The position numbers and the translations under genes were made by a program. Source: Saprospiraceae bacterium (GTDB lineage Bacteria; Bacteroidota; Bacteroidia; Chitinophagales; Saprospiraceae). From it: a stretch of DNA of 64,000 nucleotides. Below are positions 1,478 to 54,778 of this stretch, one piece after another. Every line of letters starts with the position of its first letter. The first letter of the stretch is position 1. The DNA lies in contig JANRME010000304.1 of the NCBI GenBank assembly GCA_033761835.1, positions 5,686-69,685 on the forward strand. The letters are read 5' to 3'. The notes beneath the pieces were generated by a model. The model searched no databases. It saw nothing but the letters and a program-made list of their open reading frames with translations, and was not told where the DNA came from.

Positions 1478-2128
1478 CTATTTCCTACCATCTAAAGCCT
1501 TGCCGCTCAATTGCGCTTTTTTCAGCAGCCCGGCTATGGTCGCTCTGGAATTGCCTTGATAGGTATTCTTGATTATTTTTACCAAACCGATGCTTTTGGC
1601 GTACCATTCAATGATTTCAATAACAAGAACTGATTTATTTTTTTCAGTAAAAACCAATTTGGTTTCTATTTTCAAACAATCGGTAAAGTTGCGCAAGGGC
1701 GTTTGCGCGGTTTCAAATCCTTGTGCATTTACTTCCAAAGTAAGCGTTCCTGCCGTTTCGCCAGTCTTGTAAGGGGTTTTGCTATTATAAATTTTATATT
1801 TTTCAAAAGTAGTTGGATATAATAAAAGCGGATTTGTAAAAACATATTCCTGGTTGGCAAAGCCAAAAGCTTTAAGCTTCAAACCCTCTTGGTTCTTGCT
1901 TTCCAAACGTCTTTGTCCATCGCTTTCGACACGCCACAATTCTTGAGAAGCACTGTCCACCTGAAAATACAAATGATGTAAAGGAAGCTCGGGGCGGGCG
2001 ATATTTTCAAAAATCAGGGAATCGCTTGCTTGGTTGGTCAGATAATCGGCAATAAGAATACCACTCTGTGCAGTCGTTAAACGCCACAATAGCATGAAAA
2101 TCAGGCCCAAACCAAGCTTTTTTATCAT
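1478..2128 (-). CDS. Secreted hypothetical protein
   Basis: 216-aa ORF with an N-terminal signal peptide (MIKKLGLGLIFMLLWRLTTAQS). Its start overlaps the stop of the upstream FKBP gene by 4 nt (2125-2128), which suggests an operon. Confidence 0.6.
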   Translation of the reverse strand: MIKKLGLGLIFMLLWRLTTAQSGILIADYLTNQASDSLIFENIARPELPLHHLYFQVDSASQELWRVESDGQRRLESKNQEGLKLKAFGFANQEYVFTNPLLLYPTTFEKYKIYNSKTPYKTGETAGTLTLEVNAQGFETAQTPLRNFTDCLKIETKLVFTEKNKSVLVIEIIEWYAKSIGLVKIIKNTYQGNSRATIAGLLKKAQLSGKALDGRK

Positions 2129-2583
2129 AAATAATCTACCAATTCGATTTCAAAAATAAGCACAGAGTTAGCAGGTACACTGCTTGTTCCTGTTGCGCCA
2201 TAGCCCAAGCTTGAAGGTATAAAAAATGTGCCTTTTCCGCCTCTCTTGAGTTTTGGAATGCCGATTTGCCAACCGGCTATGAGTGTGGTCAATTGAAATG
2301 GACGCGCTTGATTACCAGGCGTTTGATCAAAAACGGTGCCGTCCAATAGATAACCTTTGTATTTTACAATCACATTGGAAGTGGGAGAAGGAAAGCCGCC
2401 AACGCCGGGTTCGGTGATGATATAATATATACCCGAAGAATCTGCTGTGGCGTTAAGGTTATTATCTCTTAGGTATTGTTCGATTTTTTGCTTATCAATT
2501 GGGTCTTGATCGGGTTCGTTTTTCTCTTTGTCACAAGCGAAAATCGTGATTCCCAATAAAGCTAAGAATATCCATTTTTTCAT
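2125..2583 (-). CDS. FKBP-type peptidyl-prolyl cis-trans isomerase, lipoprotein
   Basis: FKBP_C signature (VKYKGYLLDGTVFDQT ... GWQIGIPKLKRGGKGTFFIPSSLGYG ... VLIFEIELVD). The start is placed at the internal ATG (CAT at 2581-2583), giving MKKWIFLALLGITIFAC, a signal peptide with a lipobox. Confidence 0.85.
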   Translation of the reverse strand: MKKWIFLALLGITIFACDKEKNEPDQDPIDKQKIEQYLRDNNLNATADSSGIYYIITEPGVGGFPSPTSNVIVKYKGYLLDGTVFDQTPGNQARPFQLTTLIAGWQIGIPKLKRGGKGTFFIPSSLGYGATGTSSVPANSVLIFEIELVDYL

Positions 2584-2704
2584 GTTCGGTCTTTTTTGCG
2601 AAACGCAAAGGTAAGCAATAGCGCTGTTTTGGAATAGCAGAAATATACTTTTATGCTGGTTTGTCAAATGGCAGTCAGGAAGGGTAAATGTAATAACTAT
2701 AATA

Positions 2705-2741
2705 AAATAATCGGATAAGTTTTTTGAACCTATCCGATTAT
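2705..2741 (-). terminator. Hairpin downstream of paralog P1
   Basis: 12-bp arms aataatcggata (2705-2716) and tatccgattatt (2730-2741) with a 13-nt loop. The flank is AT-rich with no strong T-run. Confidence 0.35.
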
Positions 2742-2769
2742 TATAATCTTTAGGAATATTATAATAAAA

Positions 2770-3234
2770 TTATGGCAATGTATTAATATCTACTACTCTA
2801 TGATAAGTAGCAAGCCCATATCCTTTATAAACATTCTTTATTTCGATGGGGGCAGGTAGCTTTGGATCAAGAGGATAAGTGGTCAAACTTAATTGTTCAT
2901 CCCCATCAAAATATATGGCTTGAGTTCTCCAAATAAATTTTTCGTAATTATACCTGTAATAAACTTTTCCTCGACCTAAAATTTTTTCTTGATCGAGTAA
3001 AGGCGTTTCGCTTTGTAATACAAAAGATTTTCCTTTACCACTATTATCGGTTTCTAATAGTAGAACAACACCTTCTTTATAAGGCACGAGTCGAGCAAAG
3101 CCTTCAAATACTGTGTATTCGTCATTCTTATCAAATTTAGAAAAATCAAAACGTTCTGTAAGATTTAATTTTTCTTCTGTTTTGCAGGAAAGTAGTCCTG
3201 CCAGTAATAGTAAAGATAATACATAATTTTTCAT
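2770..3234 (-). CDS. Paralog P1 of the lipoprotein family; N-terminal module only, no Cys-rich tail
   Basis: 154 aa. Signal peptide plus lipobox (LLLLAGLLSC). It shares blocks with the next three genes (EYTVFEGFARLVP, FVLQSETPLL..EKILGRGKVYYR, YFDGDEQLSL, GYGLA..VVDIN) and ends at ...VVDINTLP, exactly where the Cys-rich tail begins in the others. Confidence 0.75.
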   Translation of the reverse strand: MKNYVLSLLLLAGLLSCKTEEKLNLTERFDFSKFDKNDEYTVFEGFARLVPYKEGVVLLLETDNSGKGKSFVLQSETPLLDQEKILGRGKVYYRYNYEKFIWRTQAIYFDGDEQLSLTTYPLDPKLPAPIEIKNVYKGYGLATYHRVVDINTLP

Positions 3235-3252
3235 ATCTGTCCAATTTAAAGA

Positions 3253-3855
3253 TTAAGTATTAATACATTCAATACAACAAGCAAAATAACCACTTGAGCA
3301 ATTTACTAAACAATTACAGTTTGGATCTGGGTTACCATTTATTGTACACCAAGGATGCCCCGGACCTCCCTCATCGCAATCACCTCCGCTTTCACTATTT
3401 TCTTTACATTTACAACTTGCATCCCCAGGCTCTTCTAAATAATTTATATCAACCAATTGATTAAATTGAACGAGCCCAAATCCTGTATAGGAGTTTTTTA
3501 GTTTTATGGGAAGAGTAATATCAGAGAGAAATAAACTAAGTTGTTCATTTCCATCAAAATATAATAAATCACCTCTATAATAAATTTTACCTTGACCTAA
3601 TGTTTTCTCTTCTTTAAGAAGAGGCATTGTAGATTGCAGTAAAAAAGTTTTACTTTCTTGCTTATTATTATTTTCAACGAATAAAACAATACCCAATTTA
3701 CTTGGAACTAATTTTGCGAATCCCTGCAAGATAAAATATTCAGACTTAGAATTTAAGTCTGAAAGATCAACCTTTTCGGTAAAGTTTAAGTCTTCTTTTA
3801 GGTTGCAACTAAGCAAGGTTATAAGCCACAATAAAAAATATGATGATTTTTTCAT
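3253..3855 (-). CDS. Paralog P2: lipoprotein with 10-Cys C-terminal tail
   Basis: The start is placed at the internal ATG (CAT at 3853-3855), giving MKKSSYFLLWLITLLSC, a signal peptide with a lipobox. The N-terminal module is homologous to P1/P3/P4. Tail: PGDASCKCKENSESGGDCDEGGPGHPWCTINGNPDPNCNCLVNCSSGYFACCIECINT. Confidence 0.8.
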   Translation of the reverse strand: MKKSSYFLLWLITLLSCNLKEDLNFTEKVDLSDLNSKSEYFILQGFAKLVPSKLGIVLFVENNNKQESKTFLLQSTMPLLKEEKTLGQGKIYYRGDLLYFDGNEQLSLFLSDITLPIKLKNSYTGFGLVQFNQLVDINYLEEPGDASCKCKENSESGGDCDEGGPGHPWCTINGNPDPNCNCLVNCSSGYFACCIECINT

Positions 3856-3896
3856 AATCTTATTTAATAATTTATTTATAAAATGCTTTATTTTTA

Positions 3897-4502
3897 TTAA
3901 TTGCAGTGTATACAACATGCAAAGTAGCCAGAACTACAAGTAACAGAACAATTACATTCATCTGGTGGTGAACCACCACCAACACTACAATCTTGTGCCC
4001 CTGGTCCTCCAGCGTCACAATCACTACCAGAGGAAGCATTTTCACGACATCGACAACTCGCATCACCTGGGTTCTCAAAATAATTTACGTCAATTAATTG
4101 ATTATATCTGGCAAGTCCGAATCCCGAATATGCCTGTTTTAACTTGATAGGTAAGTTAACGTCAGAGAGATATAAACTAAATTGTTCTACACCATCAAAA
4201 TAAAGTAAATTTTCTTGATAGTAAATTTTACCTTGTCCTAAAACTCTTTCTTTATTAAGAAGAGAAACCTTAGTTTGCAACAAAAATGTTTTATTTTCTT
4301 GTTCAGTATTCCCTTCAATAAACAAAATAAGACCCATTTTACTTGGCATCAATCGAACTGAGCCTTGAAAAACCGTATATTCTGGTTTAGAATTTAATTC
4401 AGAAAGATCAATTTGCTTAGTAAATTTTAGATCTTCATTAAGGTTACAGCTTATGCTTATAAGCAAAGTGACCAATACATAAGTATATAATAAAATTTTC
4501 AT
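3897..4502 (-). CDS. Paralog P3: lipoprotein with 10-Cys C-terminal tail
   Basis: 201 aa. Lipobox at LLISISC. Tail: PGDASCRCRENASSGSDCDAGGPGAQDCSVGGGSPPDECNCSVTCSSGYFACCIHCN. Confidence 0.8.
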   Translation of the reverse strand: MKILLYTYVLVTLLISISCNLNEDLKFTKQIDLSELNSKPEYTVFQGSVRLMPSKMGLILFIEGNTEQENKTFLLQTKVSLLNKERVLGQGKIYYQENLLYFDGVEQFSLYLSDVNLPIKLKQAYSGFGLARYNQLIDVNYFENPGDASCRCRENASSGSDCDAGGPGAQDCSVGGGSPPDECNCSVTCSSGYFACCIHCN

Positions 4503-4553
4503 GATGTCAAAGTTTACAATTTAAAATCTCTATAAATGGATTCATTTAAATAA

Positions 4554-4561
4554 CAAAACTA
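4554..4561 (-). promoter_or_regulatory. Candidate Bacteroidota -7 promoter element for P3
   Basis: The plus strand reads caaaacta, which is TAGTTTTG on the minus strand and fits TAnnTTTG. It lies about 50 nt upstream of the P3 ATG at 4502. Confidence 0.3.
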
Positions 4562-4776
4562 AAAATTCCTAGTCTAATGCTTAAGTATTGGATAATCGAT
4601 TAATATGATAATAAAATCATAGATCGAAATAATCCCTGAGAGAATTGAATCTAAAAAACATCACACAAGGGCATTACATAGGTTTCACGGATCCCGCTGA
4701 TTATTGAAAAACCTATCTGCTAAATCTGCGCGATGCAAAGCAAAATTTGTATGAAAGAAAGTTCGATTTAATTTAC

Positions 4777-5373
4777 TTATGGCTTACAATGTTTACAACA
4801 AGCAAATGTGCCACTTGTACAATTATTAATAAAACATGAGCATTCTATACCAGTTCCAACGGAGCAGCCGGATGATCCTGGTCCTCCAGCATCACAATCA
4901 CTTCCACTTTCGCTATTATCAATACACTCACAAGTTGCATCTTCTGGATGAAGATTCTTGAAATCAATAAATTTATTAAATGCAGCAAGCCCAAATCCTG
5001 TATAAGAATTTTTTAGCTTTATGGGAGGAGTAACATCAGAGAGATATAAATTAAATTGTTCATTGCCATCAAAATATAATAAATCACCTCTGAAATAAGC
5101 TTTCCCTTTTCCTAATATCTTTTCCTTATAAAGGGATGAAGATTTAGTCTGTAGTCTAAATGTCTTATCTCCTTGGTCATTTTTACCTTCAAGGTATAAC
5201 ACTATTGCTTTCTGAGTAGGAACTAGTCTAGCAAAGCCTTCGTAAACTTGGTATTCATCATTTGAATTCAATTTGGAAAAATCAACTCGAGTAATACTGG
5301 ATAAATCTTTTTCAAGATTATAGGAAGTAACTCCTGCTATTAATAGCAGAATCATGGAAAGATTGGTAAACAT
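4777..5373 (-). CDS. Paralog P4: secreted protein with 10-Cys tail; lipobox Cys replaced by Tyr
   Basis: 198 aa. The hydrophobic N-terminus MILLLIAGVTSY has TAT (5320-5322) where the paralogs have the lipobox Cys. Tail: PEDATCECIDNSESGSDCDAGGPGSSGCSVGTGIECSCFINNCTSGTFACCKHCKP. Confidence 0.8.
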   Translation of the reverse strand: MFTNLSMILLLIAGVTSYNLEKDLSSITRVDFSKLNSNDEYQVYEGFARLVPTQKAIVLYLEGKNDQGDKTFRLQTKSSSLYKEKILGKGKAYFRGDLLYFDGNEQFNLYLSDVTPPIKLKNSYTGFGLAAFNKFIDFKNLHPEDATCECIDNSESGSDCDAGGPGSSGCSVGTGIECSCFINNCTSGTFACCKHCKP

Positions 5374-5677
5374 AACTATGATGTTTTAAGGGTTAAAGGA
5401 ATTATTACAAAGCTATAGCCTTTTTTTACAAAAAACAAGTAATAGAATGTTAAAATTGAATATTATTTAAACTTTTATAATAGATCTAAGTCAAAACCAT
5501 AGTTTTCAATTGACAATCATCAATTGATGCATGGCGTCTGTTAAAACGGAGGGTGGAGCTTTGGGCGAAGCCCTCTTTGTTTTTACACTTTTCGGCAATT
5601 CCTTTTTTCAAGTTCCGGCAAAAGTTGCTTATTTGCGTTAAATTTGAAGCCATTTTGAATATCAAAAAATTTCAACC

Positions 5678-6304
5678 ATGAAAGATATGTGCGTTTTTTT
5701 GGATCCCGGGCACGGTGCATTGGATAAAAATGGGAATTACGTAACCGCCCCAGCCAAGCAATTTCAACATACTCAAGGTACTTTTCACAATGGACGCTGG
5801 TTTTATGAGGGTGTTTTCAATCGCGTAATGACCAATCGCGTCGCTATGAAATTACAAAGGCTCAATATTCCTTATCTCATCGTCGCCCACGAATATCTGG
5901 ATACACCGCTGGAGTATCGAGTGAATATGGCGAATTGGTATCACCGCAATTTCAAGCCAGGTATTTATATTTCTTTTCATGCGAATGCTGCCAATGGGCA
6001 AGCGCGGGGCTATGAAGTTTATACTTCACCCGGTAAAACCGATTCCGATTCCGTAGCGGAGTTACATTGGAATAATGTAAAAGACTTATTGAGTAGCAAA
6101 ATTTCAATGCGCCCAGACACCGCTGACGGCGATGTCGATAAGGAAGCGAATTTTTATGTATTGCGCAATACCGCGATGCCCGCTATTTTGATTGAGCATT
6201 TGTTTTTTGACAATTTTGAAGACGCAAAGCTGCTGCTGGATGACGAGGTTGTAGATTTATTCGCAGAAGCAACAACGAGAACGATCGTTCAGTGGTTTAA
6301 ATAG
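5678..6304 (+). CDS. N-acetylmuramoyl-L-alanine amidase (Amidase_3-like), no signal peptide
   Basis: Motifs FLDPGHG, ISFHANAANG and ILIEHLFFDN match the Amidase_3 Zn-ligand blocks. The N-terminus MKDMCVFLDPGHG has no leader. Confidence 0.75.
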   Translation: MKDMCVFLDPGHGALDKNGNYVTAPAKQFQHTQGTFHNGRWFYEGVFNRVMTNRVAMKLQRLNIPYLIVAHEYLDTPLEYRVNMANWYHRNFKPGIYISFHANAANGQARGYEVYTSPGKTDSDSVAELHWNNVKDLLSSKISMRPDTADGDVDKEANFYVLRNTAMPAILIEHLFFDNFEDAKLLLDDEVVDLFAEATTRTIVQWFK

Positions 6305-10580: not shown

Positions 10581-12104
10581 ATGTTGATTAAACGAACAAG
10601 CATAGCGCTGTTGTTTGTAACATTTGTATTGTTTCTGCAGGCTCAATCCAATGAGTTGCTATGCGGAACGCAAAGGGATGATTTAGAACAAATTACCTGG
10701 CGATTGCTGCGCAATAGAGCTGCCCTTGCTCAAAATTCGCTTCAGGCTAGGTCCACTTATTATATTCCTATTAAATTTCATATTGTATCGCAGGATGACG
10801 GTTCGGGCATGATTTATTTCCGCCATATTTTGGATCAATTATGTGCTTTAAACAAGGATTTCGCAGAAATGCAGATTCAGTTTTACATGAAGGATAATTG
10901 CCATTATGTTAGCGATACCCGCATCAATGAAAATCATTATCACTATGGGTATCTAATGGAGCGCGATAGAGATACCTCGGCTATTAATGTTTGGATTGTC
11001 AAAACGCCTTATTCACCTAATCCCAATGCGATTACACCAGGCCTTTATCAATCGTCCAAAGACTGGTTGGTGATGAGTAAAAATTATATCAATAGCAATT
11101 CCTTTGCGCTTTCGCATGAAATAGGTCATTTTTTTGGGCTATTACACACCTTCAACGGCTGGGATACCGACCCTTGGAAAGCAGATAAACATGGCAATCC
11201 AGCACCTGCTTCCTCTCCTTTGAATATTCCGACAGAAATGGCAAATGGATTGAATTGCCGCCACGCAGGTGATTATATTTGCGATACACCACCTGATTAT
11301 AATTTTGGCTTTTATTGGACAACGGATTGCAACTACAATGGGGGCGCTCGCGACCCGATGGGCGAATTAGTTGATCCAGATGAGTCAAATTTTATGTCCT
11401 ATTTTGACCTGTGTAATAGAGGCGATTATCATTTTTCATCGGAGCAAAAAAATTTGATCCAAACGGATTTGATGAGTAATTCCAGGAACTATATTCGGGA
11501 TGGTTTTATGCCTTTGTTTACCAAAATTGAAGAAACCGTTGAGCTTCGTTCGCCAACGAGCGGCGCGCAAGTACCTTATTACAATGCAATAGCGTTGGAA
11601 TGGTCGGCGGTAGTGGGAGCGAATAATTATCTGATAGAAATAGATCGAGTACCTAATTTTACCTTGCAACCGCAAAGTTTTATTACCTCAGATACGACCT
11701 TTATCCTCAATGATTTGGATCCTAACCGCACTTATTATTGGCGCATCCGACCATTCAATGAATATTATGCCTGCGCTGCACCGACTACGCCAAAATCTTT
11801 TAAGACAGGCAGCATTGCCACTGCAACCCAAAATATTCGTCAGCTACGCGACTGGAATATTACTCCAAATCCAATTTCACGAAACACTGGTGCAAAAATT
11901 ACGTTCAACACTTCAGAAGGATTTGAAGTAGAAATAAATTTGTACAATACAACTGGACAAATAGTGCAACACATTGGAAAGCAACGATTTACTCCAGGTT
12001 TGAACACCCTCCAACTTATACCTGAACACCTCAATGCTGGTATTTATTTTTTGAGATTGCAAACGAATAAAGGAAGATTAGTTGAAAAAATAATTGTATA
12101 TTAA
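10581..12104 (+). CDS. Secreted metzincin zinc metalloprotease (M43/pappalysin-like) with T9SS C-terminal sorting domain
   Basis: Signal peptide. HEIGHFFGLLHTF fits HExxHxxGxxH. An FN3-like middle region contains YYWRIRP. The C-terminal ~80 aa (ITPNPIS...GIYFLRLQTNKGRLVEKIIVY) is typical of Por secretion tails. Confidence 0.8.
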   Translation: MLIKRTSIALLFVTFVLFLQAQSNELLCGTQRDDLEQITWRLLRNRAALAQNSLQARSTYYIPIKFHIVSQDDGSGMIYFRHILDQLCALNKDFAEMQIQFYMKDNCHYVSDTRINENHYHYGYLMERDRDTSAINVWIVKTPYSPNPNAITPGLYQSSKDWLVMSKNYINSNSFALSHEIGHFFGLLHTFNGWDTDPWKADKHGNPAPASSPLNIPTEMANGLNCRHAGDYICDTPPDYNFGFYWTTDCNYNGGARDPMGELVDPDESNFMSYFDLCNRGDYHFSSEQKNLIQTDLMSNSRNYIRDGFMPLFTKIEETVELRSPTSGAQVPYYNAIALEWSAVVGANNYLIEIDRVPNFTLQPQSFITSDTTFILNDLDPNRTYYWRIRPFNEYYACAAPTTPKSFKTGSIATATQNIRQLRDWNITPNPISRNTGAKITFNTSEGFEVEINLYNTTGQIVQHIGKQRFTPGLNTLQLIPEHLNAGIYFLRLQTNKGRLVEKIIVY

Positions 12105-12123
12105 AAAAATTCCATTTAAAATA

Positions 12124-13617
12124 ATGACACGTTTTTTTAAAACGCTTCTTTTTTCCAGCCTATGTGCTGGGATGAGCTTGACTTCAGTTGCGCAAGAGCC
12201 TTTGCGCTGTGGTGCAGATCCAGTAATGTCAAAATGGCTGGAACAATACTTTGCAGGCCAAATTGCTGTGGAGAAAAATGATGAGTTTTTGTATGTGCCG
12301 CTTACCATTCATATTTTTGGCGATGATAATGGCGAAGGCTACGTTTCTGTGAATAGTGTGCTGAACGCGCTTTGCACTTTGAATGAAGACTACGCTTCTG
12401 CCAATATTCAATTTTATATTCAAGGCGATATTCGATACGCTAATAAAACGCGGTATTATAGTCATACACAAAACTCAACTGGTTCGTCTCTGAACGCGGA
12501 ATACAACGTGCCTAATAGCGTTAATTGCTATATTGTCAACAATGCAGGTGGTGCCTTGGGGTACGCGCCGCCTGGCGGTACTTATGTAGTACTTAACAAA
12601 GGGGAAATGCGCACCGGTAGCCATACTTGGCCGCACGAAATGGGACACGCATTATCTCTGCCGCATACTTTTTACGGTTGGGAAAATTATGATTTTAATT
12701 ATGAAAACATCGCACCAGATAGAGTTTATGGCGGCCTAACACCTGCGGGACGATTGGTGGAGCGCACCGATGGTACGAATTGCCAAAGCGCAGGAGATGG
12801 TTTTTGTGATACATCGCCTGATTATTTGAGTGTTCGTTGGGATTGTGATGAAAATGGTAAAAGTACGATTGTGCAAAAAGACCCGAATGGCGTCACTTTC
12901 AAATCGGATGGCACCAATGTGATGTCTTATTCTTACGATGAATGTGTCACTCGTTTTTCAGATGACCAAAAACAAGCCATGCGCGCACACGTGCAAACAG
13001 CCAAGGCATACATGCTCAATCGGGCACAACCTGTGCCAAACATCGACGGATTGAGTCCGCAATTGATTTCGCCCTCCAAAAATGAATCAGTGCTTTTTAA
13101 TAATGTTTTCTTAGAATGGCAAGCTATCCCTGACGCAAGCCATTATCTCGTGGAAGTGAGCAGGGTCAGTACTTTTGCTGCGCAATTGACGAATCGCTAC
13201 TCAGTAAAAACCAACAGCATGACGGTGACCGATTTGATCACCGATAGAACTTATTATTGGCGGGTGAAAGCTTATAATCGGAATAGTTTTTGCGCCAGCT
13301 TTAGCACTAATAATTCATTCAAAACGACTACCACTACTGCAGCGAATGATTTGGATACAAAATCTGTATTTGAAGTATTTCCCAATCCACTTGCCGAAGA
13401 TCAGGCCCTGACGATTCAAGTCAACACACCGGATAAAACAAAATTATTGGTTCGGCTTTTTGATTCATCGGGCAAATTGCTTCAATCATCTGACTATGAA
13501 GTATTAGCAGGTGAAAATATTTTGAATTTTAAACCCAATAAATTAGCGAAGGGCCTTTATTTGTTGAGCTTTACGACAAATAAAGGAAATGCCATCAAAC
13601 GAATAACGATTCAATAA
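12124..13617 (+). CDS. Secreted metzincin zinc metalloprotease paralog with T9SS C-terminal sorting domain
   Basis: The start is placed at the ATG at 12124 (MTRFFKTLLFSSLCAGMSLTSVAQ, a signal peptide). HEMGHALSLPHTF and YYWRVKA are present. The C-terminus (VFPNPLAED...GLYLLSFTTNKGNAIKRITIQ) is a Por tail. It is a tandem paralog of 10581-12104. Confidence 0.8.
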   Translation: MTRFFKTLLFSSLCAGMSLTSVAQEPLRCGADPVMSKWLEQYFAGQIAVEKNDEFLYVPLTIHIFGDDNGEGYVSVNSVLNALCTLNEDYASANIQFYIQGDIRYANKTRYYSHTQNSTGSSLNAEYNVPNSVNCYIVNNAGGALGYAPPGGTYVVLNKGEMRTGSHTWPHEMGHALSLPHTFYGWENYDFNYENIAPDRVYGGLTPAGRLVERTDGTNCQSAGDGFCDTSPDYLSVRWDCDENGKSTIVQKDPNGVTFKSDGTNVMSYSYDECVTRFSDDQKQAMRAHVQTAKAYMLNRAQPVPNIDGLSPQLISPSKNESVLFNNVFLEWQAIPDASHYLVEVSRVSTFAAQLTNRYSVKTNSMTVTDLITDRTYYWRVKAYNRNSFCASFSTNNSFKTTTTTAANDLDTKSVFEVFPNPLAEDQALTIQVNTPDKTKLLVRLFDSSGKLLQSSDYEVLAGENILNFKPNKLAKGLYLLSFTTNKGNAIKRITIQ

Positions 13618-20060: not shown

Positions 20061-20630
20061 ATGATTTCTTTATACATTCCTTCAAATGATCAGATAAGAG
20101 ATTTTTTAAAGAAACAAGAAATTTTGACCTTTACTTATCATGAAATAGGTAAAACCAGCATTCAAACTCGAATACAATCTTATGATAATGATTATTTGAA
20201 AGTCAAGATAGGAACAGGAGAAGAGGACTTTCAAAAAGCGATAGCTGCCATCCAGGATTGGCGGATGTTTCCAGGAAAATGGACAAGGATTTTACTTGAA
20301 GAAATGCCTGTTTTGGAAGGAGTCTGTGTCGCAATGTTTGCTCACTTTGCAGGAATTTGGTGGCGTAACGCTTGCCGAATAGTTTATGTAATAAATGAGC
20401 CTAAACGCTATGGCTTTGCTTATGGTACTTTGCCAGCACATATTGAATCAGGGGAGGAGTTATTTCTGGTATCTAAAGACGAAAAAGGAATTGTGTGGTA
20501 CGAAATTCGAGCATTCTCCAGACCCAGACATTGGATTGCAAAGGTGAGCTATCCTATCATCAGATTGCTTCAAGCGCAATTTCGACGAGATTCGGCCAGA
20601 CAAATGGAAAAGATTTTAAAAAATAACTGA
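20061..20630 (+). CDS. DUF1990-like protein
   Basis: 189 aa. The block YGFAYGTLPAHIESGEELF matches the conserved DUF1990 core as I recall it. Confidence 0.55.
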   Translation: MISLYIPSNDQIRDFLKKQEILTFTYHEIGKTSIQTRIQSYDNDYLKVKIGTGEEDFQKAIAAIQDWRMFPGKWTRILLEEMPVLEGVCVAMFAHFAGIWWRNACRIVYVINEPKRYGFAYGTLPAHIESGEELFLVSKDEKGIVWYEIRAFSRPRHWIAKVSYPIIRLLQAQFRRDSARQMEKILKNN

Positions 20631-21538
20631 TGCGTGTTCAATCCTGGCATATTGGTTTGTTTATTTGGTTGCTTATTTTGATTGTTCAACCCAGCGGACT
20701 ATTTTATGAATGGTGGGCGCGCTTACTTTTGTTATTGGCGGCATTGGTCTGGATTCCCTTAGCATTTTCTTTACCGATTCTCAAAAATGAAAATTTTTTA
20801 TTACAAATCGGGATGTTACCTTCTGCCATATTATTAGTGGTATCTATGCTTTTGCCAAAAAACTATTGGGCTTTCATCTGCGCTATTCCTTGGTTTTTGA
20901 TTACTTTTTTAATATTTATAAATGGTTTAAAAGATTTATTTCAAATAAAAAAATGGACAGCATCCATAATTGCTATTAATTTAGGACAAGTATTTTTAAT
21001 TATTGGTGGAGCTTGGTTACTCGCAGATCGATTTGATTTCCAACCAGTTAGTTTTTCTCCTGATATTGTTTTACTCACGAGTATTCATTTTCATTATGCA
21101 GGTTTTATATTTCCTTTATTGGCAGGACTTGCTGCCCAGAAGCAGAATTCTGAGGCACTTAACCTGGGAAGCACCTTAGCGATTATTGCTATTCCAATGA
21201 CTGCGATAGGGATCACGATTTCACATTTACATTCTATTTATCATTTTGAATTAATAGCAGCGGTAGCAGTCGTTATAGCCGGATGGTGTGTCGCAATTGG
21301 ATACTTTGAAATAATTGTAAAAAATAAATTACCTCTTATTACTAGAATGCTTTGGTTTATTATGTCTATTACATTATTAATAAGTATGACCTTAGCTTTT
21401 TTATATGCAATTCGTTTTTATTATGTAATAGATTGGCTATCAATTCCAGCAATGAGAGCATTTCATGGTACACTAAATGCAATTGTGGTAAGTGGATGCG
21501 GATTATTGGGTTGGCGGTTTTATAAAAATGAATTTTAA
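20630..21538 (+). CDS. YndJ-like polytopic membrane protein
   Basis: 302 aa with about 9-10 TM segments. Its ATG overlaps the TGA of the preceding gene (ctgATGcg at 20627-20632). The YndJ assignment is a recollection only. Confidence 0.45.
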   Translation: MRVQSWHIGLFIWLLILIVQPSGLFYEWWARLLLLLAALVWIPLAFSLPILKNENFLLQIGMLPSAILLVVSMLLPKNYWAFICAIPWFLITFLIFINGLKDLFQIKKWTASIIAINLGQVFLIIGGAWLLADRFDFQPVSFSPDIVLLTSIHFHYAGFIFPLLAGLAAQKQNSEALNLGSTLAIIAIPMTAIGITISHLHSIYHFELIAAVAVVIAGWCVAIGYFEIIVKNKLPLITRMLWFIMSITLLISMTLAFLYAIRFYYVIDWLSIPAMRAFHGTLNAIVVSGCGLLGWRFYKNEF

Positions 21539-49197: not shown

Positions 49198-50763
49198 TCA
49201 TCCCATCTTCTCTAACAATCCTTCCCGTTTTGCAAATTTTTCCATTGCAATTTCTTGAATCGGGCGATTTTCAATTTTACTTTCTAACCAAGATATGATG
49301 TCCAGATAAAGAAATGCTCGTTTTTCATAAGGGTCGTTTAGCAATTTAAGTAATTTTTCTTTCAAACTGATAAACTCTTGTTTCATTTCTGACTCACGCA
49401 TTCGCGGTACGCGCCGCACAAAGCGGAATATTTCTTGCAAAACGGATTGCATTTGTTCCATCTTTGATAAAAAACGATACACTGATTTTACTTGATATTC
49501 AACTAATTGCGCGTTCCCTAACTCATAGTGCGCAATCAAATTGAGAATTCTGGCAAATGACTGAATATCTTCCCGATAATCTGGATTTTTTTGATTGATA
49601 ATCATATTTAAATATTCAATCGCATTTTTATTATCGCCGCTACCAAAATACAAGCAAGCGATACGATAATAAAATAGCATGACACGATGATTGTCCCAAT
49701 TGTATTCGTCTTCATCTATCAATTCTATTACTTTGGGAATCAGCTTAATACCTTCACTGAAAGTGCCTTCTATAAAATGTTTTTTGACGGTGTGATTGTA
49801 TAAAAATAAATAATAAAGCCCTTCTATATTTTTATTTTGCGTTATATCATATTCGTCGGCAAAACTTTTTAATTCAATTAAAGTTTTTTCAAATTTTTGA
49901 TAATATAATAAATTAAAAAGCACATTCAACAAATTATGAACCCCTTTGAGATACATCGGTACGTTGAGCAATTTCAACTCCGATTCCTCATGAAATAAGT
50001 CCACCCAACGCTGTGCGTACCGATAACTCATCGGAAAATCCTGTATCATGTGATAGTACCAAATATGCGCCTGACAATAATAAATTTTGCCATAAAAATC
50101 GAGCCGCTTGTAATCAATATCAGGTAATTTACTTTTAAAAAATTCTTTTACATAATTATGATCTTTTTCATTACGTGCAAAACCAACCTTGATGTACAAT
50201 CCATACATCTGCAAGGCGAGGTTGGAAAAACGATTGGTTTCCGTTAGTATTTTGTTGATTTCCAGGGCTTCAGCAGTCAATTCCTCTGCTCGGCCTTCTA
50301 TACTGCGGGTGATGTACTGCGCTTCGATGTATTTTTCAAATTCAATGATTTCTAGAGCGATTGCATAAAACTTTCCTTTGATGGCTCGTGCTTTTGCTTT
50401 GTCTAAAATATCTAGACTTTGACGATATAATCCCTTGTCGTACAATACTTTAGCGTGGTCAATCGATTCGCGTATCTGGAGATCTTCAACATGATTTCGA
50501 TTCAATAATCTTAAACTTGTGAGTAATTGTTTATATAAATGTGCCTTCAAATTAGAAAGTTGGGTCTTTTTAATCGCTGGCAGCTTCCGCAAAATCATAT
50601 CTTCATCGTACTCTTTGTATTTGTCAAGCATATCAAACAATTGTAAAAACAAAATATCGTCCGATGCCTGATTGCGCCCTACAAACAGACGAAAATGCCT
50701 TTTTTCCGCTCGTGTCAGCGACTTAATTAATTGTATGAGGTCGTCGGTTTTTTGCTTAGGCAT
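49198..50763 (-). CDS. Hypothetical all-helical (TPR-like) protein
   Basis: 521-aa ORF with no signal peptide and repeated amphipathic helical segments. No family recognised. Confidence 0.6.
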   Translation of the reverse strand: MPKQKTDDLIQLIKSLTRAEKRHFRLFVGRNQASDDILFLQLFDMLDKYKEYDEDMILRKLPAIKKTQLSNLKAHLYKQLLTSLRLLNRNHVEDLQIRESIDHAKVLYDKGLYRQSLDILDKAKARAIKGKFYAIALEIIEFEKYIEAQYITRSIEGRAEELTAEALEINKILTETNRFSNLALQMYGLYIKVGFARNEKDHNYVKEFFKSKLPDIDYKRLDFYGKIYYCQAHIWYYHMIQDFPMSYRYAQRWVDLFHEESELKLLNVPMYLKGVHNLLNVLFNLLYYQKFEKTLIELKSFADEYDITQNKNIEGLYYLFLYNHTVKKHFIEGTFSEGIKLIPKVIELIDEDEYNWDNHRVMLFYYRIACLYFGSGDNKNAIEYLNMIINQKNPDYREDIQSFARILNLIAHYELGNAQLVEYQVKSVYRFLSKMEQMQSVLQEIFRFVRRVPRMRESEMKQEFISLKEKLLKLLNDPYEKRAFLYLDIISWLESKIENRPIQEIAMEKFAKREGLLEKMG

Positions 50764-52999: not shown

Positions 53000-53674
53000 A
53001 TGATAAGGAAATTAAGCAAAATTGATTGGAGGTATGCACTTGGCGAAGTATTCCTTATTTTTCTGGGCATCAACCTAGCATTATGGTTTAATAATTTAAA
53101 CGAAAATCGAAAAACAAGAAGCCAGGAGATAGAAACGCTTAAAGAAATCAAATTGGGTTTACAGGCAGATTTAATAGATATTGTTACAAATATTGAAGGA
53201 TTTGAAAATCGAACCAAGAGTTATGATCTATTGATTAAATATTTGATTAATAAAAAGCCAATGGATGATAGTCTTCGGATGTATCTTCCTTTTTTAAGCG
53301 GCTCTACGATGTTTGTTACCAACAGGACGCCCTACGAAACACTAAAATCACATGGATTTTGGTTAATAAGTAATGACAGTTTGCGCGCAGCCATTATGAA
53401 ATATTATGATGTTTCTCAGGACTGGATGTTAATAAACGAGGATGGGTATTTACAACATTATACAATGAACATTAAACCTATTTTGGTCAAACACTTTGAG
53501 TTTAGAAAAGGGTTGCTGCCTTTTGATTTTGACGCTTTGTGCCAGGATAGAGAAGTGCTGCAAAATCTACTCTGGGCAAATTCATTAAATTATTTGCAAC
53601 TTAATTTGTATAAAGATATTAGAACAGAAGCCAATACTCTCATTCAAAAAATAGATAAAGAATTAGCTCGTTAA
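53000..53674 (+). CDS. Single-pass membrane protein, DUF6090-like
   Basis: 224 aa. The N-terminus ...YALGEVFLIFLGINLALWFNNLNENRK resembles the conserved anchor of DUF6090 proteins. This is a recollection. Confidence 0.5.
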   Translation: MIRKLSKIDWRYALGEVFLIFLGINLALWFNNLNENRKTRSQEIETLKEIKLGLQADLIDIVTNIEGFENRTKSYDLLIKYLINKKPMDDSLRMYLPFLSGSTMFVTNRTPYETLKSHGFWLISNDSLRAAIMKYYDVSQDWMLINEDGYLQHYTMNIKPILVKHFEFRKGLLPFDFDALCQDREVLQNLLWANSLNYLQLNLYKDIRTEANTLIQKIDKELAR

Positions 53675-53677
53675 GCT

Positions 53678-54778
53678 TTGGGAAAAAATATCATTTGTAC
53701 CGTTACCAACGATCTTTCTTATGACCAACGCATGATTCGTATTTGTACAAGTCTTGCTCATGCTGGTTATAAAGTGCTGTTAATCGGGCGGTTGAAAAGA
53801 AATTCTGAGTCATTGATAAATAAACCTTTTCAACAAAAACGCTTGAAATGCTGGTTTGAAAAAGGTAAGTTTTTTTATATTGAATATAATATTCGATTGC
53901 TTTTTTATTTACTTTTTGTAAAATTTGATGCGATTTGCGCAGTAGATTTAGATACCATTTTACCAGGATTATTTCTGAGTAAAATCCGTGGAAAGCCCTG
54001 TGTTTATGATGCGCATGAGTATTTTACAGAAACGCCAGAAGTTGTGCGCCGCCCAATTATAAAATATATTTGGGAAATGATTGCCAAATTTGCCATTCCG
54101 CGCGTGGAGGTAGCATACACGGTGGGGGAGGAGTTAGCAAAGATTTTTGAACAGCGATATAAAAAGAAATTTTGGGTCATTCGAAATGTACCATTTCGAC
54201 AAGAAGGAATTGCAAATCCAACTCGAAATATTATATTATATCAAGGTGTATTAAATGAAGGACGCGGTTTGGAACAAGCCATCGAAGCGATGCAAACGCT
54301 TGAAAATAGTGAACTTTGGCTGGCTGGCGAAGGCGATTTATCTGCATTTTTGCGACAAAAAGTTATTCATTTACAATTGGAAAATAAAGTAAAATTCTTG
54401 GGTTATTTACATCCAAAAGAGTTACATGAAACAACATTGCAAGCGAAAATAGGGCTTAATTTATTGGAAAACAGAGGCTTGAGTTATTATTATTCTTTAG
54501 CAAACAAAACATTTGATTATATTCAGGCGGGCATCCCTTCCATTCATATGAATTTTCCGGAATATAATAAAATTAATGAAAAGCATGATGTTTTTTTACT
54601 AATTGAGGATTTGAATATTCAAAGAATTATAACAGCCATTGAAAATTTAATCAAAAATAAGGATTTGTATAATGAATTGCGAGAAAATTGCCTGGAAGCT
54701 AAAAAAATCTTTGTTTGGGAGAAAGAAGAAGAAAAATTAATAGCGCTGTATAATAACCTGTTAAAGAATAAGCATTAG
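53678..54778 (+). CDS. Glycosyltransferase (GT-B fold, GT4-like)
   Basis: 366 aa with a TTG start. The C-terminal half contains ILYQGVLNEGRGLEQAIEAM...LWLAGEGD and an E-x7-E-like region. Confidence 0.7.
   Translation: MGKNIICTVTNDLSYDQRMIRICTSLAHAGYKVLLIGRLKRNSESLINKPFQQKRLKCWFEKGKFFYIEYNIRLLFYLLFVKFDAICAVDLDTILPGLFLSKIRGKPCVYDAHEYFTETPEVVRRPIIKYIWEMIAKFAIPRVEVAYTVGEELAKIFEQRYKKKFWVIRNVPFRQEGIANPTRNIILYQGVLNEGRGLEQAIEAMQTLENSELWLAGEGDLSAFLRQKVIHLQLENKVKFLGYLHPKELHETTLQAKIGLNLLENRGLSYYYSLANKTFDYIQAGIPSIHMNFPEYNKINEKHDVFLLIEDLNIQRIITAIENLIKNKDLYNELRENCLEAKKIFVWEKEEEKLIALYNNLLKNKH

What the first reader, a model, noticed from the sequence alone, without database searches (positions are those of the whole stretch)
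2770..5373. Tandem array of four paralogous lipoprotein genes in an AT-rich block; neither module is recognisable
Four co-directional minus-strand genes (P1 2770-3234, P2 3253-3855, P3 3897-4502, P4 4777-5373) are separated by gaps of 18, 41 and 274 bp. They share a ~140-aa N-terminal module. The conserved blocks are EY.V..GFA(R/K)LVP, (K)(T/S)F.LQ(S/T)...LL..E(K/R).LG.GK.YY, LLYFDG.EQ.SL.LSD, PIKLK..Y(T/S)GFGL and (V/I)D(I/V)N.

I cannot place this module in any named family. Single-line G+C counts suggest a composition shift: 18/60 at 3481-3540, against 31/60 at 6001-6060 in the flanking amidase gene. Stretches of the paralogs remain almost identical at nucleotide level. One example is cctggtcctccagc(g/a)tcacaatcact in P3 (~4000-4026) and P4 (~4877-4903), which points to recent duplication or gene conversion.

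An expanding, composition-shifted family of surface-exposed proteins is the kind of accessory locus that may encode an undescribed function, such as adhesion, antagonism, or a receptor or decoy. This is my top candidate in the window.
Basis: partly seen in the sequence, partly recalled or inferred. Interest (0 to 1): 0.75.

Follow-up and report, generated by a model that had tools for sequence, protein, structure and literature searches.

The report
Acquired island of orphan lipoprotein paralogs
A Saprospiraceae genome has picked up a 2.8-kb AT-rich DNA island carrying four old, diverged copies of a small exported (mostly lipid-anchored) protein that resembles nothing known; three copies carry a unique acidic 10-cysteine tail, and their function is still unknown.

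Summary
Four co-directional minus-strand genes sit at the stated coordinates. They share a ~125-aa N-module, and the block is the lowest-GC stretch of the window.

Three details need correcting:
- Only P1-P3 have a lipobox. P4 has Tyr in place of the lipidated Cys.
- The paralogs are old (41-62% aa identity, 58-71% nt identity, dS about 0.9-1.8), so neither recent duplication nor gene conversion is supported.
- P2-P4 carry a conserved acidic tail of about 57 aa with 10 invariant Cys. P1 lacks it.

New findings:
- The array is a ~2.8-kb insertion. The closest relative (flanking genes 75-99% identical) and seven more Saprospiraceae genomes have the FKBP and amidase genes adjacent and no array.
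- The family is tiny: seven singleton proteins among ~15 billion. The three outside members are single-copy, tail-less and P1-like.
- Pfam, NCBIfam, PHROGs, PADLOC, PDB sequence searches and Foldseek (PDB, BFVD) on a confident model of the N-module all find nothing.

Best reading: a pre-formed array acquired by horizontal transfer, encoding non-enzymatic envelope or surface binding proteins whose tail is probably a disulfide knot. The biological role is not determined. This is a genuine orphan family, with moderate interest.

The parts
2684..5497 (.). Inserted AT-rich island of about 2.8 kb. Boundaries are approximate: clear homology to the empty site in L007 ends at 2646, with weak similarity to about 2683, and resumes at about 5497-5523.
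   Evidence: blastn and alignment of the window against L007. FKBP and amidase are adjacent, with gaps of about 220-310 nt and no array, in L007-L011, L014, L024 and L038. This is the lowest-GC stretch of the window.
4777..5373 (-). P4 (198 aa, MDX1942656.1). It has a signal-peptide-like N-terminus with Tyr in place of the lipobox Cys, then the N-module and the 10-Cys tail. It is the first gene of the array.
3897..4502 (-). P3 (201 aa, MDX1942655.1). Lipobox ISISC, N-module and 10-Cys tail.
3253..3855 (-). P2 (200 aa, MDX1942654.1). Lipobox TLLSC, N-module and 10-Cys tail. The start at 3855 agrees with the paralog alignment and with the NCBI annotation; the longer ORF starting at 3918 is unlikely.
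2770..3234 (-). P1 (154 aa, MDX1942653.1). Lipobox GLLSC followed by K-T-E-E, which resembles the lipoprotein export signal. It has the N-module with a loop insertion and no Cys tail. It is the copy closest to the three outside homologs (42-47% identity).
3253..3426 (-). P2 tail: acidic (net -8), 10 Cys.
3897..4067 (-). P3 tail: acidic (net -6), 10 Cys.
4777..4944 (-). P4 tail: acidic (net -6), 10 Cys.
2706..2742 (-). Intrinsic-terminator-like hairpin (16-bp stem followed by a T-run), 28 nt after the P1 stop codon and inside the island.
   Evidence: RNA fold dG -20.2 kcal/mol, z = -4.55
5408..5415 (-). TAGCTTTG, a Bacteroidota -7-like box (TAnnTTTG) 35 nt upstream of the P4 ATG. This is a possible promoter with low weight, because no properly spaced -33 element is present.
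4554..4561 (-). TAGTTTTG, a -7-like box 52 nt upstream of the P3 ATG, in the 274-nt gap. It is a possible second promoter for P3-P2-P1, with low weight.

Best explanation
**Shown**
- About 2.8 kb (roughly 2684-5497) is a lineage-specific insertion between the FKBP-lipoprotein gene and the amidase gene of a Saprospiraceae genome.
- It consists of four anciently diverged paralogs of an orphan family and its own terminator.
- It has no mobility gene and no terminal repeats.

**Inferred: origin**
- The array was assembled in an AT-richer donor and acquired as one block by horizontal transfer.

**Inferred: mechanism**
- All four proteins are exported through Sec.
- P1-P3 are cleaved by signal peptidase II and lipidated on Cys, which tethers them to the outer membrane. 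P1-type proteins carry an LES-like K-T-E-E motif and may be flipped to the cell surface.
- P4 has lost the Cys, so it is either released as a soluble envelope protein or stays anchored by its signal peptide.
- The N-module is a compact eight-stranded all-beta domain. No conserved Cys, His or Ser nucleophile is present, so it is most likely a binding domain and not an enzyme.
- In P2-P4 it presents a strongly acidic tail of about 57 aa. The ten invariant, fixed-spacing cysteines most likely form five disulfides, giving a rigid knot, in the oxidising envelope.

**Most likely role**
- Membrane-tethered binders that capture, mask or neutralise an external partner. That would be a protective inhibitor or decoy, or an adhesin-type function.

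**Confidence**
- The architectural statement (acquired island of exported, mostly lipid-anchored, non-enzymatic proteins) is fairly secure.
- The specific protective-binder role is a guess, at about 0.3.
For: **Insertion**
- L007 has flanking genes at 75-99% aa identity, and seven further Saprospiraceae loci share the synteny. All have FKBP and amidase adjacent and none has a family member.
- The family is absent from the GTDB species-representative genomes at the sensitivity of the scan pattern.

**Foreign composition**
- GC is 31.7% against 40.3% for the window.
- GC3 is 0.19-0.20 against 0.40 +/- 0.05, below every other ORF in the window.

**A pre-formed array**
- Paralog dS is 0.85-1.8 and dN is 0.24-0.47. 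The host-versus-L007 flanking genes give dS of 0.37-0.60 (FKBP alone 1.04, with an offset start in its alignment) and dN of 0.006-0.16.

**Real, constrained genes**
- dN/dS is 0.17-0.34 in the N-module and 0.20-0.52 in the tail.
- There are 27 invariant positions across the 7 members.
- All 10 Cys are invariant, with fixed spacing.

**Export and lipidation**
- P1, P2 and P3 pass a PROSITE-style lipobox pattern.
- The acidic pair at +4/+5 in P1-type proteins fits C-X-K-(D/E)2-X, the export signal described in PMC5080379.

**Fold**
- The AF2 model of the N-module has pLDDT 88 and pTM 0.81, with eight beta strands.

**Self-contained unit**
- There is a terminator hairpin after P1 and -7-like boxes before P4 and P3.

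**No enzymatic or system signature**
- Pfam, NCBIfam, PADLOC and PHROGs give nothing.
Against: - No experimental or homology-based functional evidence exists.
- Only one of the five AF2 models is confident (the others are at 61-64), and the alignment has only 7 sequences.
- The tail was not modelled (pLDDT about 41), so the disulfide knot is inferred from Cys invariance and an even Cys count only.
- P2 and P3 have the acidic pair one residue out of register with the LES, and position is reported to be critical.
- The donor is unknown. No tail-bearing homolog exists anywhere else.
- No insertion mechanism is evident: no target-site duplication, inverted repeat, tRNA or integrase.
- dS is saturated and is computed on AT-biased genes, so the relative dating is rough.
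- P4's Cys-to-Tyr change could be a MAG consensus error, since it is a single G-to-A change.
Confidence: 0.5

Rival explanations
1. Orphan immunity or inhibitor array. The small tethered beta-domains neutralise incoming envelope-targeting toxins or lytic enzymes, in the manner of T6SS/AID immunity lipoproteins or the MliC/Pli lysozyme inhibitors.
For: - It is a co-directional array of small paralogous envelope lipoproteins with skewed GC, acquired horizontally and with no toxin gene alongside.
- Outside homologs sit in variable regions next to toxin-antitoxin-like genes.
- This matches the general picture of AID/rAID clusters (10.1101/471110).
Against: - No member of the family is found next to an effector gene anywhere.
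- There is no XerD-like recombinase and no repetitive intergenic sequence.
- PADLOC, Pfam and NCBIfam give no match to immunity or inhibitor families.
- Foldseek finds no MliC/Pli-like barrel.
- The idea does not explain the conserved 10-Cys tail.
Confidence: 0.15
2. Tethered toxin or antimicrobial peptide precursors. The N-module acts as a carrier or pro-domain, the Cys-rich tail is a released disulfide-rich toxin, and the tail-less P1 immediately downstream is the immunity protein.
For: - The layout of signal peptide, conserved N-domain and C-terminal Cys-rich module recalls prepropeptide toxins.
- P1 follows P2 after only 18 nt.
- The junction P-x-D-A-[ST]-C is conserved.
- The island was acquired horizontally.
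Against: - The tails are strongly anionic (net -6 to -8, pI about 4.1), unlike membrane-active peptides.
- The tails are as conserved as the N-modules and are not polymorphic.
- There is no protease, transporter or maturase in the island.
- P1-type genes occur alone in three other contexts, with no tail-bearing partner.
Confidence: 0.1
3. Metal-binding (metallothionein-like) tails. Surface or periplasmic lipoproteins sequester or buffer Zn, Cu or Cd through CxC, CC and CxxC motifs.
For: - The tail contains two CxC motifs, one CC and a terminal CCxxC. It is rich in acidic, Gly, Ser and Asn residues, and two of the three copies have a His next to the last Cys.
Against: - Cys content is 17%, below what is typical of metallothioneins (own knowledge).
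- The location is an oxidising compartment, which favours disulfides.
- Gly, Pro and aromatic positions are invariant (GGPG, SG-x-FACC), which suggests a fixed fold.
- No Pfam or NCBIfam metallothionein or metal-resistance hit was found, and no such genes lie nearby.
Confidence: 0.08
4. RiPP precursor array. A long conserved leader domain is followed by a Cys-rich core that is modified by a radical-SAM or lanthionine enzyme, in the style of NHLP/Nif11 precursor arrays.
For: - Tandem paralogs with a conserved N-domain and a Cys-rich C-terminus resemble NHLP/Nif11-type precursor arrays (own knowledge).
Against: - Sec/lipoprotein signal peptides are incompatible with cytoplasmic maturation.
- There is no maturase, peptidase-domain (PCAT-type) ABC transporter or GG cleavage motif in the island, and the flanks are conserved housekeeping synteny.
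- NCBIfam RiPP precursor models do not hit.
Confidence: 0.02
5. Decaying passenger genes. The island is a neutral remnant of foreign DNA with no current function.
For: - The family is extremely rare (7 proteins).
- P4 has lost its lipidation Cys.
- The composition is not ameliorated.
Against: - All four ORFs are intact.
- dN/dS is 0.17-0.52.
- Ten invariant Cys and 27 invariant N-module positions are kept despite dS of about 1 or more.
- The terminator is retained.
Confidence: 0.1

Closest known systems
Bacteroidota surface-exposed lipoproteins carrying the lipoprotein export signal (LES; Lauber et al. 2016, PMC5080379)
   Same: - Signal peptidase II signal peptide with a lipobox Cys.
- P1 and the outside homologs have a polar or basic residue followed by two acidic residues at +4/+5 (C-K-T/I-E-E).
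   Different: - There is no homology to any characterised surface lipoprotein (SusD, BtuG/H, MucG and so on).
- P2 and P3 have the acidic pair at +5/+6.
- P4 has no Cys.
- Localisation is untested.
AID / rAID-1 orphan immunity gene arrays of Bacteroidales (10.1101/471110)
   Same: - Horizontally acquired.
- Skewed, low GC.
- Co-directional array of small genes with no cognate toxin gene.
   Different: - No XerD-like recombinase and no integron-like intergenic repeats.
- No homology to any cognate immunity gene.
- The genes are paralogs of one family, not a mixed repertoire.
- The Cys-rich tails have no parallel.
Chlamydial small cysteine-rich outer-membrane lipoprotein OmcA (Pfam Chlam_OMP3) - recalled from memory as an analogy
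   Same: - A small lipoprotein with a very Cys-rich exported part that is thought to be disulfide-bonded in the envelope.
   Different: - There is no Pfam match even at E <= 10.
- Here the Cys-rich part is a C-terminal appendage on a 125-aa Cys-free beta domain.
- The phylum and genomic context are different.
Polymorphic-toxin / prepropeptide architectures (conserved N-terminal carrier plus C-terminal toxin, with a downstream immunity gene)
   Same: - The order of modules.
- A tail-less gene lies immediately downstream.
   Different: - The tails are not polymorphic, are anionic, and match no toxin family.
- No secretion or processing genes are present.
- P1-type genes occur alone elsewhere.

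Membership tests
Bacterial lipoproteins (signal peptidase II substrates) | N-terminal signal peptide ending in a lipobox with an invariant Cys at +1 | tested here: met
   - P1 (LLSC), P2 (LLSC) and P3 (SISC) pass a PROSITE PS51257-style pattern, as do P0005 and P0007.
- P4 (VTSY) has no Cys and fails.
- P0008 fails on Asn at -2.
- So the feature is met for three of the four window genes.
Bacteroidota surface lipoproteins with LES | C-X-K-(D/E)2-X: a polar or basic residue, then two acidic residues at +4/+5, with position critical (PMC5080379) | tested here: inconclusive
   - P1 C-K-T-E-E-K and the outside homologs C-K-T/I-E-E-N fit the acidic +4/+5 pair.
- P2 C-N-L-K-E-D and P3 C-N-L-N-E-D are shifted by +1.
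- P4 is not applicable.
- The LES consensus for Saprospiraceae is not known.
Bacteroidota surface lipoproteins with LES | Demonstrated exposure at the cell surface | not testable with these tools
   This needs surface proteolysis, immunolabelling or a surfome analysis.
rAID-1 / AID orphan immunity clusters | [quoted passage not shown] | tested here: not met
   The island holds only the four paralogs. Its flanks are conserved housekeeping genes that are syntenic with L007.
rAID-1 / AID orphan immunity clusters | Genes homologous to cognate immunity genes found next to effector genes elsewhere | tested here: not met
   - The family has only 7 members.
- None of the outside loci has an adjacent toxin or effector gene.
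- PADLOC, Pfam and NCBIfam give nothing.
rAID-1 / AID orphan immunity clusters | Two or more co-directional genes with skewed, low GC | tested here: met
   Four co-directional genes at 31-33.5% GC, against 40.3% for the window.
rAID-1 / AID orphan immunity clusters | Repetitive, integron-like intergenic sequences | tested here: not met
   The repeat finder reports only the coding-region paralogy, and no intergenic repeat family.
Any Pfam / NCBIfam / PHROGs / PADLOC family (N-module or tail) | A profile match at or near the curated threshold | tested here: not met
   - No hit passes a curated threshold.
- The best chance-level hits are SipL at E = 0.14 and Cas6e at 0.018-0.067, at 13 bits.
- The tails alone give nothing at E <= 10.
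Known folds (PDB, BFVD), including the LolA/RseB-like, lipocalin and MliC-like barrels | A significant structural match to the N-module model | tested here: not met
   - Foldseek against PDB gives a best E of 0.077 and TM <= 0.27.
- Foldseek against BFVD gives a best E of 0.08 and TM <= 0.27.
- hhalign against E. coli RseB gives a probability of 0.2%.
- PDB sequence profiles give nothing.
- AlphaFold DB was not available.
Metallothioneins | A profile match, a very high Cys fraction and metal-thiolate clusters | tested here: not met
   - No Pfam or NCBIfam hit.
- Cys content is 17%.
- Metal binding itself cannot be tested here.
RiPP precursor arrays (NHLP/Nif11-type) | A cytoplasmic leader domain with an adjacent maturase and a peptidase-domain (PCAT-type) ABC transporter | tested here: not met
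   - The proteins carry Sec/lipoprotein signal peptides.
- No maturase or transporter lies in the island or in its syntenic flanks.

The most novel reading that the evidence does not exclude
The N-module is a genuinely new beta fold. The acidic 10-Cys tail is a new kind of bacterial, lipoprotein-displayed cystine-knot module, found so far only in this genome. Together they would form a transferable surface 'binder cassette', or a tethered disulfide-rich effector with P1 as its partner, and so a class of envelope protein not yet described in Bacteroidota.
Probability: 0.15. Interest if true: 0.6.

Novelty: new variant of a known kind. Interest (0 to 1): 0.35.

Why it matters
If the proteins are expressed, this would be a clean example of three things:
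- a very rare orphan family (7 proteins in about 15 billion);
- a predicted fold with no structural relative;
- a Cys-rich appendage that is unique so far, moved as a ready-made paralog array into a wastewater-type Saprospiraceae lineage.

It could reveal a new surface-binding or protective module. It also gives a dated case of block transfer without recognisable mobility genes.

As it stands it has no functional handle and touches no long-standing question. It is a well-characterised unknown and not a discovery.

Tried and rejected
**Family and homology searches**
- Pfam, NCBIfam, PADLOC and PHROGs on all four proteins, and Pfam on the tails alone: nothing.
- PDB sequence searches with the profiles A1, A8 and A3: nothing credible.
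- Word-indexed search of 5.8 billion proteins with P2, the tail profile and a 5-sequence profile: only the paralogs plus P0005, P0007 and P0008.
- Exhaustive HMMER search of 1.84 billion representatives: only P0005 is a real extra hit. P0006 was rejected as a low-complexity tandem-repeat protein that matches through 'EGLVLFLES'.
- DNA-level scans of the GTDB genomes, JGI metagenomes and IMG/VR with the N-module and tail profiles: no extra loci.

**Structure**
- The full-length AF2 model was poor (pLDDT 58.6, tail about 41), and its Foldseek hits are meaningless.
- The N-module model is good, but Foldseek against PDB and BFVD returns nothing. The recurring weak RseB lead was rejected by hhalign.
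- A relationship to the neighbouring DUF3108-like protein was rejected.

**Other checks**
- Rfam and tRNA scans: nothing in the island.
- Terminal repeats, target-site duplication or a shared non-coding backbone with the outside loci: none convincing. Only a 5-nt AGTCA lies at both junctions, which is not significant.
- A full two-box Bacteroidota promoter pattern: no match in the island.
- Literature searches for Cys-rich Bacteroidota or Saprospiraceae lipoproteins, and for the sample accessions: nothing relevant.


Full report
**1. The observation**

- P1 2770-3234 (154 aa)
- P2 3253-3855 (200 aa)
- P3 3897-4502 (201 aa)
- P4 4777-5373 (198 aa)

The gaps are 18, 41 and 274 nt. They correspond to NCBI proteins MDX1942653-56 (SFU99_18960-18975) of a Saprospiraceae MAG, on an 87.8-kb contig.

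Identity is 41-62% at the amino-acid level.

The composition shift holds over the whole window:
- The array is 31.7% GC, against 40.3% for the window.
- It is the lowest 2.6-kb stretch in the 64 kb, about 3.4 sd below the mean.
- GC3 of the four genes is 0.19-0.20. For 47 other ORFs it is 0.40 +/- 0.05 with a minimum of 0.254.

**2. Corrections**

(a) P4 is not a lipoprotein as written. Where P1-P3 have L-L-S-C or S-I-S-C, P4 has V-T-S-Y. There is no upstream alternative start.

(b) The 'almost identical' stretch is 28/30 nt over the conserved peptide SGSDCDAGGPG, in genes whose third positions are about 80-85% A/T.
- Overall nucleotide identity is 58-71%.
- The longest exact match between any two copies is 26 nt.
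- NG86 dS is 0.85-1.8.
- The duplications are therefore old, and nothing calls for recent duplication or conversion.

(c) The second module deserves description. P2-P4 end in a tail of about 57 aa.
- It has ten invariant cysteines with the spacing C-x-C-x9-C-x9-C-x7-10-C-x-C-x3-4-C-x6-CC-x2-C.
- GGPG and SG-x-FACC are also invariant.
- Net charge is -6 to -8, with a pI of about 4.1.
- P1 stops right after the N-module.

**3. The array is an insertion**

I used the flanking PolX-like gene to fetch syntenic loci from GTDB species representatives.

L007 (JADJNW010000003.1, Saprospiraceae MAG Fred_18-Q3-R57-64_BAT3C.164) has the window's flanking genes at 75-99% amino-acid identity, in the order TopoI-C, DUF3467, DUF3108-like, FKBP, amidase, PolX, AAA_26, MDH.
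- Its FKBP and amidase genes are about 276 nt apart.
- It has no family member.

The same adjacency, with gaps of about 220-310 nt, is seen in L008, L009, L010, L011, L014, L024 and L038, whose PolX identity falls from 82% to 66%.

Nucleotide homology between the window and L007 stops at 2646, with weak similarity to about 2683. It resumes at about 5497-5523. About 59 nt in L007 is therefore replaced by about 2.8 kb in the window.

The island contains the following:
- the four genes;
- a strong terminator hairpin after P1 (dG -20.2, z = -4.55);
- -7-like TAnnTTTG boxes 35 nt before the P4 start and 52 nt before the P3 start.

It contains no other ORF, tRNA, Rfam element, integrase or terminal repeats.

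Host-versus-L007 flanking genes have dS of 0.37-0.60 (FKBP alone 1.04, with an offset start in its alignment) and dN of 0.006-0.16. The paralogs differ by dS of 0.85-1.8 and dN of 0.24-0.47. So the copies diverged before the island entered this lineage. Together with the GC3 anomaly, this points to horizontal acquisition of a pre-formed array from an AT-richer donor. This is an inference, and dS is saturated.

**4. How rare and how unrecognisable the family is**

- An exhaustive HMMER search of 1.84 billion representatives with the N-module profile found the window's own proteins (as cluster representatives), one true outside homolog (P0005) and one spurious repeat protein.
- A profile search of the 5.8-billion-protein set added P0007 and P0008.
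- All seven family members are singleton clusters.
- The three outside proteins are 167-168 aa, tail-less and P1-like. They begin C-K-T/I-E-E-N, share a loop insertion at the same place as P1, and are 42-47% identical to P1.
- They sit as single genes in unrelated neighbourhoods: next to a GH31 gene and an MNT-type nucleotidyltransferase, next to Rieske and metallo-beta-lactamase genes, and next to a 67-aa RHH-like ORF.
- DNA-level scans of genomes, metagenomes and viral contigs added nothing. The tail has no relative anywhere.
- Pfam, NCBIfam, PADLOC, PHROGs and PDB sequence searches are empty.

With seven sequences, AlphaFold2 gives a confident N-module model: pLDDT 88, pTM 0.81 and eight consecutive beta strands. 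Only one of the five models is confident.

Foldseek finds no match in the PDB (best E 0.077, TM <= 0.27) or in BFVD (best E 0.08). The recurring weak RseB lead fails hhalign. The neighbouring DUF3108-like protein is unrelated. The tail could not be modelled.

**5. Mechanism**

Shown:
- Signal peptides with a lipobox in P1-P3.
- Purifying selection on both modules (dN/dS 0.17-0.52).
- 27 invariant N-module positions, none of which is a Cys, His or Ser.
- Ten invariant tail cysteines, which is an even number.

Inferred:
- Export through Sec, followed by lipidation and tethering to the outer membrane.
- Possible surface exposure of P1-type proteins. Their K-T-E-E matches the acidic +4/+5 rule of the Bacteroidota lipoprotein export signal (PMC5080379). 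P2 and P3 are one residue out of register.
- A five-disulfide knot in the tail.
- A non-enzymatic binding role.

I rate a protective binder, decoy or inhibitor, or an adhesin-type role, as most likely. The specific role is only about 0.3.

Rivals:
- An orphan-immunity array shares the skewed-GC co-directional layout. It lacks the recombinase, the intergenic repeats and any effector-linked homolog (one search gives the defining features).
- A tethered toxin with P1 as immunity is disfavoured by the anionic, non-polymorphic tails and by the stand-alone P1-type genes elsewhere.
- Metallothionein-like metal binding has the right motif types, but the compartment is oxidising and there is no family match.
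- RiPP precursors are excluded in practice by the signal peptides and the absence of a maturase.
- Neutral decay is argued against by intact ORFs and by constraint.

**6. Verdict**

The 'expanding or recently converted' reading is wrong. One copy is not a lipoprotein. Nothing yet indicates what the proteins do.

This is a real orphan family with an unusual Cys-rich appendage. It is of moderate interest and worth a structure or localisation experiment, but it is not a top-tier finding.

Noticed in passing
window 5527-5585 (+), and the matching FKBP-amidase intergenic regions of L007, L008 and L009: A conserved GC-rich hairpin followed by a T-run (GGAGGGTGGAGC...GCCCTC TTTGTTTTT), preceded by a conserved ATGGCGTCTGT. 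The stem sequence differs between genomes while the pairing appears to be kept. It lies just right of the island and upstream of the amidase promoter box TAAATTTG. It has no Rfam match. It could be a small RNA, a short ORF (36 aa) or a terminator.
   Followed up: partly
window 2125-2583 (-): The FKBP-type PPIase lipoprotein next to the island scores 80.7 bits against NCBIfam BamJ, a component of the Bacteroidota BAM complex. That is below the 100-bit cut-off. It is conserved in synteny across Saprospiraceae.
   Followed up: no
window 20061-21538, 49198-50763 and 53000-54778: Other low-GC patches (GC3 0.25-0.36). They encode DUF1990 plus a YndJ-like protein, a 521-aa protein with no Pfam match, and a DUF6090-like protein (below cut-off) plus a GT4 glycosyltransferase. 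They may be further accessory or acquired segments.
   Followed up: partly
L001 980-1183 (-); L002 10670-10990 (-); L003 and L004: The outside homologs of the family lie next to toxin-antitoxin-like genes: a 67-aa RHH/ParD-like ORF and an MNT-type nucleotidyltransferase (NTP_transf_2/Polbeta). This suggests they also sit in variable regions.
   Followed up: no
P0006 (540 aa, from the representative library): A tandem-repeat, low-complexity protein matched the N-module profile in 8 stretches (E = 5e-7), purely through 'EGLVLFLES'-type repeats. It is a false positive worth remembering when profiles of this family are reused.
   Followed up: yes
window 10581-13617 (+): Two adjacent 507-aa paralogs. 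Only the first was scanned: an M43-like metalloprotease with a T9SS C-terminal sorting domain. The second is inferred from a 31% tblastn match in L007. The pair is conserved in L007.
   Followed up: no
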